Part shown: positions 449 to 56,950 of the stretch, in pieces
How positions within the stretch are numbered: the stretch's first letter is position 1
Layout: each line of letters starts with the position of its first letter
NCBI GenBank assembly: GCA_964016885.1
Contig: OZ024741.1
Coordinates: forward strand, 381,176,001-381,240,000
Length of the DNA: 64,000 bases
DNA from: Eledone cirrhosa
Taxonomy: Eukaryota
Direction of reading: 5' to 3'
Made by a program: the position numbers and the translations under genes
The notes under the pieces: model-generated
What the model saw: only the letters and a program-made list of their open reading frames with translations
The model's database searches: none
What the model was told of the DNA's origin: nothing

Positions 449-1025
449 TATATGAAAGACGTAAATAAGAAAGTTATGAAAATTGACTTACTTACTAAAA
501 TTTCACTCCAATTAATTAGTTTCTGTAAGGGGATAAATATAGTTACGTAATATAACCATAGAGAAGCCTTACGTCATCAGGGAGTCTATTCTCAGCTAAG
601 CTTCCAGGCAATGCGGGGACACTGGGAACTTATATAAAAATAATTCAGTGGATGGAAAAAAAGCGAGCGGGGCTAGATTCCAAGACATTGAAAATTCACT
701 GCCTACTTGGTCAAGTAACAAATTCAAAAGAATCAATCACGTGACACTGAGGTTAATCAGCTAGGAGTGGGGGTGCTATTAACACAGAGCCTAGCCACTA
801 CTATCAGTCACAGTAGTAATTTCGGCAAATTTTGCTCAACAAATAATTTGGAGATAATTATAAAGAATTAATATATCTACCGACATATCTATACAGATGC
901 ATACCTATGCTACCAAATATATATGTTTTGTCTTAGTAACTTTTTGGTTCTATGCAGGGGGATGCAGAACAATTATATGAAATACGTAAATAAGAAAGTT
1001 ATGAAAATTGACTTACTTACTAAAA
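449..1025 (-). mobile_element. Non-coding Penelope pseudo-LTR or retrozyme-like unit (525-bp period, about 1.1 copies)
   Basis: 52-bp direct repeat at 449-500 and 974-1025 (1 mismatch); internal hammerhead motif; (TA)n tracts on both sides. Confidence 0.6.
505..585 (-). ncRNA. Type I hammerhead ribozyme motif, probably with one stem III mutation
   Basis: Minus strand reads ACUCC-CUGAUGA-C GUAAGG...CCUUAC A-GAAA-C UAAUUA A-UU-GGAGU; stem I ACUCC/GGAGU, long stem II, palindromic loop III. Confidence 0.7.
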
Positions 1026-1115
1026 AACAGACAGAATATATATATATATATATATATATATATATATATATAGAAAAAATTTACGAAATGGAAATGCGGG
1101 TATATAGAATTTATT

Positions 1116-1236
1116 AGGTAACAATTGTTTCTATAGTGTATGAGTTACCTATACTTCGCTACTTGAATAATACACAAATATTATCAAAAACCGAAAGTAC
1201 ACTGTAAGCCAACAAACACCCCATGTCATCAGACCT
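1116..1236 (-). ncRNA. Type I hammerhead ribozyme motif in Penelope pseudo-LTR (left arm)
   Basis: AGGU-CUGAUGA-(long stem II)-GAAA-CAAUUG-UU-ACCU on the minus strand. Confidence 0.75.
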
Positions 1237-1646
1237 TTGTATTAGAATGATATGAAAATATTTCATACACTAGATAAAAGATAAAGAAGGAGGTAGGAAG
1301 AGAAGGGGAAGAGGGAAGTGAATAAGGTGGAGGGAGTCTTAGGGTTTAAGACTGTCAGACTAGTAGAGATTGTGAAGAGAGAATGTTTTGGCAGCAGTTA
1401 GCTTAATGAGGCGTGCTAAGGTTGGCTGGGAAGTAGATTCTTCTAGTGGTGTTGTTCGGACAAAATTTAGTTAGAGGGGTCAAAGTGGTACAGTGTCACA
1501 GACAAGTTATTAGGGCTATTATAGTAGCAGGTTATTTCTAAAGGGGTCCAGAAAAACAGTGTTTAGTACTATTATTATAGAAAGCAATATCTAGTGTATA
1601 AACATATAAGACAGAAATTTGCAAACGTTGGTGTAAAAAGGTAACA

Positions 1647-2945
1647 TTATATGCATTTAAAAAAAGAAAAAGTCGTTTTCAAACGATGGTTACAGTATAG
1701 AGAACGTTCAATTTTGCTGTTCAAAAGTTTGTTTACCGACGTTAAAATGCAGTATATCTCTAAATTGCATAACTTGCAGAATCGATGATTTTGCTGATAT
1801 GCAGGCGCAGCTGCAATAATTTGCCAATCAAGGGAGAACGCTTGATTGTTCCTCCGAAGCTGCCAGGCTTTATCGGCGAGGGTTGTTACGGAGCGCATTT
1901 TCTCGTGCCTGATCGAAGATCGATGTTGGTATAGGCGAGCCTTGAAAGAAGTTGCGGTACATCCGACGTAATACCATTTGTTGGTCCTGGAATTTATTGT
2001 ACACCGGTAGACAATATTGCGTGCTAGGCACTGGTTATTCAGTGGGCACGTATCTGGTTTGGTGCAGTTACAGCTATTTTTATGTTTTGCAGTAGAATCC
2101 TGGATAGTTTGGTGGGGTTGTGGTTGCGTGTTAGTGCGTTGTATGTTGCTATGCTGGTGCGCTGAGTCATTAGGGATGTACTTATTCAGTATTGCTGAGT
2201 TGAGTTTTCTAATTAGTTGTTCTATGTTAGGTGCAGTGGAGTATGAGAGTCTAATGGTGCGCGAGTTAAAGATTTTATAGTATTTATGTGAAGTTGTAAA
2301 GTGTTTATTGATTAGTGTATAGAATTGTGAGATAATCTTAGTGCTAATAGAAGAATTGTACACGGGGTTATACCATATGTACTCTCTACGTCTGACTCTA
2401 TTTGCTGGTTTGCACCTGTTAGTATGCCTATTGATGTGTGTGTGTGGTGTAATACTAGTTCGACTTAGATGTGTTTTATTCCTAGTACTTATGTGGTTAT
2501 CGTCTAGATATTCAATTTTCTCGCAGTAACCAGCTTTTCTAAGTGCGTCATTATAATATTCAGCACGCTCGTTGAAGGTCTGCAAATTAGACGACAGTCG
2601 GGAGATCCTTATGGATATATTTTTAGGGATAGATTTAATAATGGAGTGAGGATGGTTCGATTTTACATTAACGTACTTAAGATTTTTATTAAGTTTGTGA
2701 AATGGCTCTATATTACCGTTATTAAGGTTGAAGGTGACATCCAAGAAGTTGACCACCTTAAGATTGTGTTCAAAGGTAATATTAAGCCCTAGTTCTAAGA
2801 AAAGTTTCCTAATGTTTTTACGTCGCCTTTCTAGGTTTTGTTTGTTCATATTCTTGATTAATAGAAGTGTATCGTCGCGGTATATTCCGCCGTGGAGGTC
2901 CGTAAATTCGCTCTGGAGTCTATGGGCTATATAGATCCCAACCAA
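1647..2945 (-). pseudogene. Penelope RT C-terminal half plus GIY-YIG endonuclease (open frame, 5'-truncated)
   Basis: 432-aa uninterrupted frame starting inside RT motif B'. Confidence 0.9.
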
Positions 2946-54450: not shown

Positions 54451-54504
54451 CTAACTAATTCACCAATCTCTCCTCTCCTATCTCCTCTCATATCTCCATC
54501 TCCA

Positions 54505-55690
54505 CCAAGGAGCGGTAAGGTAATTGAAGCATAGTAACTCTCTATGTCAAACTGGATGAATTTTGTGTCTCGTTTGTCCTCCATATTGCTGAACCATGAG
54601 ATTACTTCCTGGGTGTTGACCCGGGTCCGTAAACAATTAATCAGCTTCTTCCGCGGCTGCGGATTTAAAATAACACTACAAACGTCGCTAACCCAAGTAA
54701 ACTTCCTGGACGTTACACTTAACCTCGATAACGATCTGTACTACCCATACAGGAAACAAAACGACAACCTGCACTACATCCACCACCGGTCGAACCATCC
54801 TAGAAACATCACCAATAACCTGGTTAAAAACATCTCCCTCCGCATATCTAGTTTGTCCGCTAATGAGCAGATATTCGAGGAACATACGCCTTATTACAAC
54901 CAGGCCCTCAAGCGGAGTGGCTTCCGGGAGGAAATATCCTATTGTCCAGCTTCCATTAGCGGAACCAGCAGGCGACACCGCCGCTGGTGCAACGTGACGT
55001 GGTTCAATCCTCTCCACAATGCCGAAGTGACAACACTTATCGGGAAAATCTTCTTTAGGCTCCTCGAAAAACACTCCCCACTACAACACCGCTACCACAA
55101 CATAATCAACAAAAATACCATCAAACTCTCCTACAGCACCACACCTAACTTTGCACAAAACATCGTCTCCTCTAACAACAAAATCTCAACCCCTATGGAA
55201 GAAATAATCTAGATAGCAGTGGAGAGCCGACCAGGAGTTGTAACTGTCTTGATGGATCCCTTTGCCCCCTCGACAACAGATGCAGAGATCGTAATGTAAC
55301 CTACCAGTGCAACGTGAGGACGGACACCTCCAACAAAGCTTATATAGTATTAACCGCTTGTGACTTCAAGACCAGGCTATACCAACACAGACATAGTTTC
55401 CGAAACCTGGCCCGGCGTCACGCCACTACACTTTCGGGCCACATCTGGGACCTCAAAGATAACAATATAACCTATAATCTCACTTGGAGCTTACTATCCA
55501 GAGCCAACTCTTACACGGGAGAACGCCGTCCGTGTAACTTATGCTCGGAGGAAACATTACAAATGTTGTTTTCGACGGACCAACTCCTAAACAAGGAAGA
55601 CGAAGATGTAACTGCATGCAAACACAGATTGCGTAGGACTTACCTCGCACTCAAACCCCATAATGACCCGGGAGGGGGGGGGGGGTAGAC
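54505..55690 (+). mobile_element. Penelope-like element 3' half (54626-55690 plus) with an inverted RT piece (54505-54625 minus)
   Basis: VNFLDVTLNL, SNHP, WFNP, CNC..CP, FKTRLYQH, CNLCSEE on plus; FIQFDIESYYASI on minus. Confidence 0.88.
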
Positions 55691-56854
55691 AAGGGCTGAA
55701 ACACCCCACTTGCCGACTTTGTAATGGGTAACCCTGCTTACAAAGGTAGACGTAACTTCTTTATATCTTCTTTTTATATATTTTTTATCGTTTCCTCTAT
55801 ATTTCCTTCTTCCCCCATCCCTTCCTAGTCCTTCCACCTCAGATCTCCTTCTTTGTCGTCGTTTTTTCACCTTCTCGCCCACCCCGATGCAGCCCTTTGG
55901 TCCTCTCTAGCCTGAGTACACCCACCCCCTTATTTTATGATAGAATTAGCCGATTCCGCTTTTTAGAGCAGATGTGCTAGACCCCAGATACTTGCTTTCT
56001 TCTCTGGTGGCTGCCCCCATTTCTGTGATTTCTAGATTTATTAGTGGTATTTCTGCTTTAGTTTCTCGTATATCAGTAATTATTTATTGGGATTCTGAAT
56101 TAATTTTTCGTATTAGTTTTTCATATATATTGTACGAGTATTTGTGTAGATTGTATTAGAATTTATGTATTGTAGCACTATTTATATATATATTGCATTA
56201 GTTTTTTTTATATATATTGTATGAGTATTTATGTAGATTGTATTATAATGTATGTATTGTAGCAGTACTTATATATATTGTATTAGTATTCATGTTTCGG
56301 GATTATGAATTAATATTTCGTATTAGTTTTTTTAGAATGTTGGTCCTCAACTTGTTGACCTGTCATTGTAAGATAGCTTTGGCCGATTACTACTAACTAT
56401 CGTAGTGGTGGTAGCCCCCTGTAATGATGACCTCATAAAATTCTTTCATTACAATCTCGTATTTAGTATTCCTTCCCACCTATTAAACTTTTCTATAGCT
56501 TAGCAGTACCAGTGAGAGATTTGATGATTGTGGAAGGGGACTAGTAACCAGAAATGTTTTAAAAATATTTTTTATATTTTTTATATATTTTCTCCATTTA
56601 GATTTACTTATTGTTTCAACCCTCCTCCCCTTCTCTAGTATACATTTTTCGACCTTCTACATACTATCCTTAGAATCTGCTGTAGTTTTCACTTTCAACG
56701 CTTGACTGGGTTTCCTCCACTCCCTCTTCCTCTTTCTTCTACTGGCAAGTTCAGCTACCACTACCTTCCACAAAATCCCATGATAGAATCATGTGTGTTA
56801 ACAACAAACTTTTGACCAATCCTTGTGACAATCACTTTTACCATATATGGAATT

Positions 56855-56950
56855 ACCCCCTGAGAAGGTCGGTTATTCATTTACCAGGCTAAACATTTTC
56901 ATTTAGTCCAGAATTAGCCGTAGAAACGGCTTGAGCTCAGCCGTCGGGTC
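56855..56950 (+). ncRNA. Type I hammerhead-like motif with long stem II and stable stem III
   Basis: ACCCC-CUGAGAA-..CGGUUAUUC...GAAUUAGCCG..-GAAA-CGGC UUGAGCUCA GCCG-UC-GGGU; core position 8 is A, so variant or decayed. Confidence 0.6.

What the first reader, a model, noticed from the sequence alone, without database searches (positions are those of the whole stretch)
505..56950. Set of atypical Penelope-associated hammerheads: long stem II rods, palindromic loop III, non-canonical 10.1-11.1 pair
Seen: motifs at 505-585, 1116-1236/4053-4169, 7908-7940, 51519-51557 and 56855-56950/8177-8238 have unrelated stems but a common plan. Loop III is palindromic in four of them (UAAUUA, CAAUUG, CGUACG, UGAGCUCA). 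Stem II is extended to ~50-90 nt in three families. The usual G10.1-C11.1 pair is replaced by C-A in two unrelated families and by U-U or U-C in others, and one has the U3-A8 covariant core. Known: Penelope pseudo-LTRs carry minimal type I hammerheads that dimerise through palindromic loop III. Inference: the recurring C-A closure and long stem II are family features rather than decay, and standard descriptors limiting stem II length would miss them.
Basis: partly seen in the sequence, partly recalled or inferred. Interest (0 to 1): 0.7.

Follow-up and report, generated by a model that had tools for sequence, protein, structure and literature searches.

The report
Mismatch-closed hammerheads of Penelope retroelements
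These are hammerhead-shaped RNA motifs, predicted to cut their own transcript, at the ends of very abundant Penelope-type jumping genes; two families keep an unpaired C·A where hammerheads normally have a G-C pair, likely a selected design, while the other oddities listed are single-copy decay or a rearrangement artefact.

Summary
The motifs are real and belong to five repeat families, each with about 760-17,000 exact pattern matches genome-wide (family D not pattern-counted). B, C, D and E end Hydra-clade Penelope-like elements (PLEs). A is a non-coding 506-571-nt tandem repeat, retrozyme-like.

C·A at 10.1-11.1 is a true family feature. In A it is nearly fixed (C 98/100, A 100/100) while the next helix covaries; B and four more lineages share it. 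A's long stem II is 6 bp, an internal loop and a hairpin, not a rod; the loop likely pairs with loop I.

Three first-reader oddities fail. D's U-C and E's G·A are private mutations (families are G-C). The CUGACGA core at 7908 arises at an inversion junction; that family has a fixed A4 core. 8177-8238 is only a 3' half. A sixth, decayed motif (7040-7090) was missed. Rfam finds none.

U·U closure and U3-A8 are published, and one C·A case is tabulated (Chara). This scan already reported long-armed Hydra hammerheads and the A4 family on other DNA. Cleavage is untested.

The parts
505..585 (-). Family A type I hammerhead motif: 5-bp stem I, CUGAUGA, C·A closure, 6-bp helix + pyrimidine internal loop + distal hairpin, 10-nt palindromic stem III (broken here by a private change at 512), predicted GUU cut after 510
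589..593 (-). GAGAA in the 5' flank (loop I side), complementary to UUCUC in the stem II internal loop: predicted loop I-loop II pseudoknot
   Evidence: one compensatory subfamily (L249, L255)
445..1025 (-). Copy of the 506-571-nt non-coding family A repeat between (TA)n tracts, with a short inverted piece; approximate bounds
1116..1236 (-). Family B hammerhead motif, 94-nt stem II insert, C·A closure, 8-nt palindromic stem III, GUU site; about 410 nt after the ORF end
1647..2945 (-). 5'-truncated Hydra-clade PLE ORF of family B (RT YRDD region, CxCx5C linker, GIY-YIG-type EN, CxxC, CxH)
2935..3642 (+). Inverted, more truncated copy of the same ORF (inverted arms about 1066-2317 and 2972-4219)
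4053..4169 (+). Second family B hammerhead motif, 90-nt stem II rod, intact, predicted cut after 4165; on the opposite strand from the first copy
7040..7090 (+).
7861..7953 (+). Family C end piece folded back on itself; CUGACGA at 7908 is made by the inversion junction. Family motif: A4 core, U·U closure, 3-bp stem II, 5-bp stem III, extended stem I
8177..8238 (-). 3' half only of a family E motif (canonical C11.1; no CUGA half)
51519..51557 (+). Family D hammerhead motif, U3-A8 core, 4-bp stem II, 8-nt palindrome, GUA site; U at 51530 is private (family G-C); stem I weak next to the core
54538..55688 (+). Broken, 5'-truncated Hydra-type PLE ORF of family E (two frames)
56855..56950 (+). Family E hammerhead motif, 56-nt stem II insert, C3/A8 core (about a third of the family has U3-A8), GUC site; A at 56922 is private (family G-C)

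Best explanation
The motifs are type I hammerhead folds at the ends of Hydra-clade Penelope-like retrotransposons (B, C, D, E) and of a non-coding tandem repeat (A); in A and B a fixed C·A mismatch replaces the G10.1-C11.1 pair, likely under selection, and these ribozymes are predicted to cut slowly, in pairs through the palindromic stem III, releasing unit-length RNA. Shown: sequence, copy numbers, position in the pseudo-LTRs of full-length elements, covariation of the helix next to the fixed C·A, tandem arrangement of A. Inferred: in full-length B (two motifs 3017 nt apart around a 784-aa frame) and in A tandems (506-571 nt), two same-strand copies would exchange stem III strands and cut, giving a unit RNA that may be circularised and copied by PLE RT/EN into (TA)n; A would borrow the enzymes. 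A's long stem II likely keeps the usual loop I-loop II contact through an internal loop 6 bp from the core. A wobble-like mismatch (C·A, U·U, A·G) stacked on the A9·G12 pair would be tolerated and probably lowers the rate. The window copies are lone, truncated or mutated and probably inert. Families C (A4) and two thirds of E (C3/A8) likely carry weak or dead cores and spread anyway.
For: Family A: 8,516 pattern matches, 0 in the control; first 100 listed have C10.1 98, A11.1 100, U17 99. In 21 aligned copies (window + 20 picked for diversity) the six pairs after the closure are all kept, one with four pair types (UA 8, AU 6, GC 4, CG 3) and one with two (GC 12, UA 9), while the closure is never a standard pair; 0/500 shuffles reach the covariation score and slid structures fall to 31-50% paired versus 88%; RNAalifold finds the same helices unprompted. 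GAGAA/UUCUC complementarity at a fixed offset, with one subfamily changing both sides. Family B: 758 matches, C10.1 in 98 of 100 listed, C·A in 41 of 41 matches in fetched loci, some overlapping. C·A also in families F1, F2, F3 and an AGCU subfamily. In 600 kb not chosen for these motifs, only 3 of 24 descriptor hits have G-C; A·G 7, C·A 5, U·U 4. Stem III of A, B, D is unstable as a hairpin (+1.5 to +2.4 kcal/mol) but stable as a self-duplex (-6.4 to -9.8). Full-length B, C and D carry the motif twice around an ORF with Hydra-clade motifs. Tandem units of A have no M-started frame over 67 aa. An axolotl hammerhead with U·U closure cleaves, better as a dimer (PMC7229834 section 15).
Against: No cleavage or RNA data for any family. 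The predicted minimum-energy folds of B, C and D monomers do not form the hammerhead stem I. The covariation control ignores relatedness, the 20 copies were hand-picked, and the pseudoknot rests on one compensatory event. B is young and its rod shows no tested covariation. Family C (17,145 matches, A4) and the C3/A8 part of E amplified with cores expected to be impaired, and catalytic mutants of an Anolis PLE hammerhead did not affect insertion in vitro (PMC11167929 passages), so cutting may be dispensable. Stem I of D has only 2 clean pairs next to the core. About 4 of the 24 sample hits are singletons that may be chance.
Confidence: 0.7

Rival explanations
1. The fold is kept mainly as a binding or priming handle for the element's RT/EN protein; cutting is weak, protein-assisted or dispensable, which would let the 10.1-11.1 pair and even core positions 3 and 4 drift.
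For: A4 is fixed in the most abundant family examined at the normal pseudo-LTR position of full-length copies. About 67 of the first 100 E copies have C3 with A8 (counted by eye). An Anolis PLE hammerhead cut only with protein and its mutants still inserted.
Against: Across most families the whole catalytic core, an NUH site, U3-A8 covariation and a self-complementary stem III are retained, which fits selection for catalysis. N7 varies freely in B while the catalytic positions were fixed by my pattern, so that contrast is only partly tested.
Confidence: 0.22
2. The C·A closure and long stem II are neutral, slightly harmful changes fixed in a few master copies and inherited by descent.
For: Genomic copies descend from few masters, so high counts alone show no selection. 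C·A lineages might share an ancestor; no tree was built.
Against: Across A subfamilies the adjacent pair has changed among four types while C·A stayed. One family holds both U·U (94 of 100 listed) and C·A (5 of 100), with one C-G and no C·U or U-A listed. C·A occurs with unrelated stems in six lineages.
Confidence: 0.08

Closest known systems
Hammerheads of Hydra-clade PLEs (Craig et al. 2021, PMC8557442; section 11, passages, File S1, File S2 and parts of Figs S1, S2, S7 read)
   Same: Type I motif near the 3' end of a short RT + C-terminal GIY-YIG element inserted in (TA)n; U·U closure in many Hydra entries and U·C in Penelope-15_HM; short near-palindromic stem III; U17 common.
   Different: Listed Hydra stems II are about 3-7 bp with loops of 10 nt or less; here inserts reach 50-94 nt. 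No Hydra entry has C·A or an A4 core; C·A appears once, in Chara PLE-X1_cBra.
Minimal PLE hammerheads (Cervera and de la Pena 2014, PMC4209133; parts 1-2 of 4 and supplement parts 1-2 of 3 read)
   Same: Palindromic stem/loop III, dimer model, U3-A8 variant, 4-5-bp stem I; U·U closure visible in the Hydra and D. willistoni rows of Fig. S3.
   Different: Their consensus has one extra base 5' of a highly conserved G10.1-C11.1 and a 6-8-bp stem II; here a symmetric mismatch closes a much longer stem II.
Metazoan non-LTR retrozymes (Cervera and de la Pena 2020, PMC7229834, passages and section 15; Li et al. bioRxiv 10.64898/2026.07.22.740005, part 1 of 5)
   Same: Family A: non-coding, low-GC tandem repeat with one type I hammerhead per unit and a predicted loop I-loop II contact; axolotl HHR_Amex2 has a mismatch at the base of helix II and cleaves.
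   Different: Units are 506-571 nt versus about 300-390 nt in the passages read; the closure is C·A; the loop contact would come from an internal loop of an extended stem II; RNA circles not shown.
Natural hammerhead core variants (Perreault et al. 2011, PMC3088659, section 8 and passages)
   Same: U3-A8 covariation, U10.1-U11.1 mismatch and loop I-loop II pseudoknots are described.
   Different: C10.1·A11.1, A4 and C3/A8 are not in the text I read.

Membership tests
Type I hammerhead ribozyme | Core CUGANGA...GAAA...UH at a three-way junction (or U3-A8) | tested here: met
   A, B, D and the U3 third of E
Type I hammerhead ribozyme | Same core test for family C and the C3 part of E | tested here: not met
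   C has A4 in 100/100 listed; about 67/100 E copies have C3 with A8. These are hammerhead-like folds, not filed as working members
Type I hammerhead ribozyme | Stems I-III supported by covariation | tested here: met
   Family A stem II; F1 stem II by inspection. Not tested for the B rod
Type I hammerhead ribozyme | G10.1-C11.1 (purine-pyrimidine) closing pair | tested here: not met
   Not met in A, B (C·A) and C (U·U); met in D and E. A conserved but not absolute feature: U·U variants are known and active
Type I hammerhead ribozyme | Match to an Rfam hammerhead model | tested here: not met
   No hammerhead among 37 window hits at E<=10; in 14 loci only a short G-C family gave sub-threshold HH9 hits among the 150 of 175 rows shown
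Type I hammerhead ribozyme | Self-cleavage after H17 | not testable with these tools
   No assay; no RNA run listed
Hydra-clade PLE | Single ORF, RT then C-terminal GIY-YIG EN, RWK, DKT, CxCx5C linker, CxxC and CxH | tested here: met
   B: all motifs in one 784-aa frame (L301). C: RWR, DKT, YRDD, CxCx5C in L303, CxxC/CxH in another copy. D: motifs over broken frames, CxH not seen. E: DK[TS], YRDD, CxCx5C, CxxC, CxH over broken frames; compared by eye
Hydra-clade PLE | Direct pseudo-LTRs with the hammerhead, inverted truncated copies, (TA)n targets | tested here: met
   Motif pairs 3017 (B), 3259 (C), 3316 (D) nt apart; inverted arms and TA flanks
Hydra-clade PLE | Placement in the Hydra clade on an RT tree | not tested
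   No reference proteins were available as session sequences
Non-LTR retrozyme (family A) | Non-coding tandem unit with one type I hammerhead per unit | tested here: met
   14 unit spacings of 506-571 nt in 9 loci (some overlapping), longest M-started frame 24-67 aa; no PLE ORF adjoining upstream in 30 + 20 loci
Non-LTR retrozyme (family A) | Monomeric linear and circular RNA in tissue | not testable with these tools
   No RNA holder listed

The most novel reading that the evidence does not exclude
In this genome a mismatch at 10.1-11.1 is the majority design (C·A, U·U or A·G), selected as a built-in brake or switch, for example a pH-sensitive A+·C wobble, so that cutting needs a dimer or the element's protein. 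Long stems II are modular: a normal-length helix, an internal loop that makes the loop I pseudoknot, and a free distal arm. Sister families with A4 or C3/A8 cores form a natural series that tests whether Penelope elements need their ribozyme at all.
Probability: 0.3. Interest if true: 0.65.

Novelty: new variant of a known kind. Interest (0 to 1): 0.42.

Why it matters
G10.1-C11.1 is treated as one of the most conserved hammerhead pairs and is built into search models. Here six lineages use C·A and only 3 of 24 sampled motifs use G-C, so current models undercount these ribozymes (Rfam found none in the window). Family A gives a ready, covarying natural series for testing the C·A closure and an internal-loop pseudoknot. 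Families C and E allow a direct test of the open question whether PLE hammerheads must cut. The class itself, the dimer model, U·U and U3-A8 are known, which limits the surprise.

Tried and rejected
C·A coupled to U17: suggested by A, B and the AGCU subfamily, rejected because F1 and F2 have A17 and F3 has C17, and the Chara case has C17. Naiad or Nematis assignment: rejected; the EN is C-terminal and the motifs fit the Hydra clade. An autonomous ORF for family A: none adjoining in 50 loci. A pseudoknot for B: one candidate seen by eye was not kept in the subfamily variants; not tested further. Counts of the generic C·A pattern (4,888 versus 3,923 in the control) were not used; only the listed families were. 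Pfam did not recognise the PLE ORFs. Expression: no RNA holder listed; the two contig runs laid (one sample) only confirm that the window's base at 512 is a minority. Lunse et al. 2017 and Nelson and Uhlenbeck 2008 were not held, so their variant tables may already hold C·A or long-stem cases; effects of 10.1, U4 and C3/A8 changes on rate are recalled, except where cited. Searches with no paper on C·A closure; searches gave nothing on A4 cores or 50-90-nt stems II in PLEs (listings, plus passages of PMC13725137). No hammerhead was identified for the ORF at 52274-54740 (-).
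Full report
Setting. The window is G000:C2:381176001-381240000 of a 3.0-Gb animal genome, rich in (TA)n and retroelement debris. I did not test the host's identity. I call the five families A (505-585, -), B (1116-1236, -; 4053-4169, +), C (7908, +), D (51519, +) and E (56855-56950, +; 8177-8238, -).

Observation. 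All strings are present. A strict descriptor recovered the two B copies and no palindromic hit in 60 shuffles. Rfam gave no hammerhead in the window at E<=10. To separate family features from decay I fetched the 30 best genomic copies of each motif and counted fixed patterns genome-wide. All family patterns had 0 control matches: A 8,516, B 758, C 17,145, E 1,581. D was not pattern-counted; its DNA search had 1,454 first-look candidates. Tallies 'of 100' are by eye from the first 100 listed rows.

Family A. C10.1 in 98, A11.1 in 100 and U17 in 99 of 100. The window copy has a private change that breaks the 10-nt palindrome. In an alignment of the window copy and 20 copies picked for diversity, the six pairs after the closure are kept in all 21, one with four pair types and one with two, while the closure is never a standard pair (20 C·A, 1 A·A). 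RNAalifold found the same proximal helix and a distal one. The shuffle control ignores relatedness, so it is support, not a p-value. Single-sequence folds show 6 bp, a pyrimidine-rich internal loop of about 7x7 and a distal hairpin in most copies, so this is not a rod. The loop's UUCUC is complementary to GAGAA 13-14 nt upstream of the core: 24 of 35 sequence variants have a 5-7-bp match at that offset, and one subfamily (L249, L255) changes both sides. This is the loop I-loop II pseudoknot known from other hammerheads, here inferred from one compensatory event. A occurs as head-to-tail units of 506-571 nt with inverted pieces, no frame over 67 aa and no adjoining PLE ORF. It fits a non-LTR retrozyme.

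Family B. C·A in 41 of 41 matches in fetched loci, some overlapping, and C10.1 in 98 of 100. The 90-nt insert folds as a rod (-28.8 kcal/mol); the family is too uniform to test covariation. A full-length copy has two motifs 3017 nt apart around a 784-aa frame with RWK, DKT, YRDD, CxCx5C, CxxC and CxH, the Hydra-clade signature of Craig et al. 2021. The window's two copies are on opposite strands of an inverted truncated insertion, so they could not pair on one transcript.

Family D. The U3-A8 core is the family state, but the closure is G-C in 30 of 33 and the window's U is unique. Stem II is 4 bp. This is an ordinary PLE hammerhead with a weak stem I.

Family E. The closure is G-C in 32 of 38, so the window's A is decay. 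The stranger feature is the core: about 31 of 100 copies have U3-A8, 67 have C3 with A8 and 2 have G3. Stem III is a stable hairpin (-7.1) with the palindrome in its loop. The 8177-8238 piece has no 5' half.

Family C. The window's CUGACGA is formed where the element folds back on an inverted copy of itself; the same junction U appears in other fold-back copies. The family has A4 in 100 of 100, a U·U closure, GAAA in 99, a 5-bp non-palindromic stem III and an extendable stem I; a looser U4 pattern has 151 matches. The motif sits twice around a Hydra-type ORF. Two earlier notes of this scan already described this family.

Wider sample. In 600 kb not chosen for these motifs (100 kb of it next to the window) a relaxed descriptor gave 26 hits versus 0, 1, 1 in shuffles. 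With a slightly different cut-off, 24 hits had closures A·G 7, C·A 5, U·U 4, A-U 3, G-C 3, U-A 1, C·U 1, and 18 had inserts over 30 nt; about four singletons may be chance. C·A recurs in three further families and in a subfamily of an 11,498-match family that is otherwise U·U (94 U·U, 5 C·A, 1 C-G of 100). It is not tied to the cleavage-site base.

Mechanism. Shown: anatomy, position, copy number, covariation. Inferred: stem III of A, B and D is unstable alone and stable as a self-duplex, so two same-strand copies would cut as a dimer and release a unit RNA, as shown for axolotl retrozymes, one of which has a U·U closure. A wobble-like mismatch on the A9·G12 stack probably lowers the rate (recalled knowledge; Perreault et al. 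note that U·U is the best-tolerated mispair). Against a need for cutting: families C and most of E, and the finding that an Anolis PLE hammerhead is protein-assisted and dispensable for insertion in vitro. Predicted monomer folds of B, C and D do not form stem I. No RNA data bear on this.

Novelty. Known: PLE hammerheads, palindromic stem III, U3-A8, U·U and U·C closure in Hydra-clade tables and one C·A in Chara PLE-X1_cBra. Not found in print in my searches: C·A as a fixed, recurrent feature with a covarying helix, 50-94-nt stems II in PLEs, A4 cores. Lunse et al. 2017 was not held and may cover some of this; bioRxiv supplements were closed. This scan has reported long-armed Hydra hammerheads on other DNA, which I treat as a lead, not support.

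Noticed in passing
   Followed up: partly
L150 (-), L016 (+): Families with a C4 core (CCGAAGA), A·G closure and palindromic stem III; 7 matches in fetched loci.
   Followed up: no
L136, L171, L173, L182: Two long-stem families with an A·G closure and a 3-bp triloop stem III; A·G was the commonest closure in the genome sample.
   Followed up: partly
L212-L240: An 11,498-match family, partly in tandems about 420-430 nt apart, whose minor subfamily switches U·U/A17 to C·A/U17.
   Followed up: partly
window 52274-54740 (-): A broken Hydra-type PLE ORF for which no 3' hammerhead was identified.
   Followed up: partly
window 49264-49986 (+): RT fragment with an IDD motif, from a different PLE-like clade than the Hydra-type ORFs; clade not tested.
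   Followed up: no
window 5610-6489 and 15000-41100: Several decayed non-LTR retrotransposons (RVT_1, zf-RVT, Exo_endo_phos hits) and a SINE-like repeat at 10430, 10624, 11715, 60652, 63631.
   Followed up: no
window 50911-51181: A 135-nt perfect-style fold-back of a repeat end around an (AAT)n tract, similar in form to the family C fold-back.
   Followed up: no
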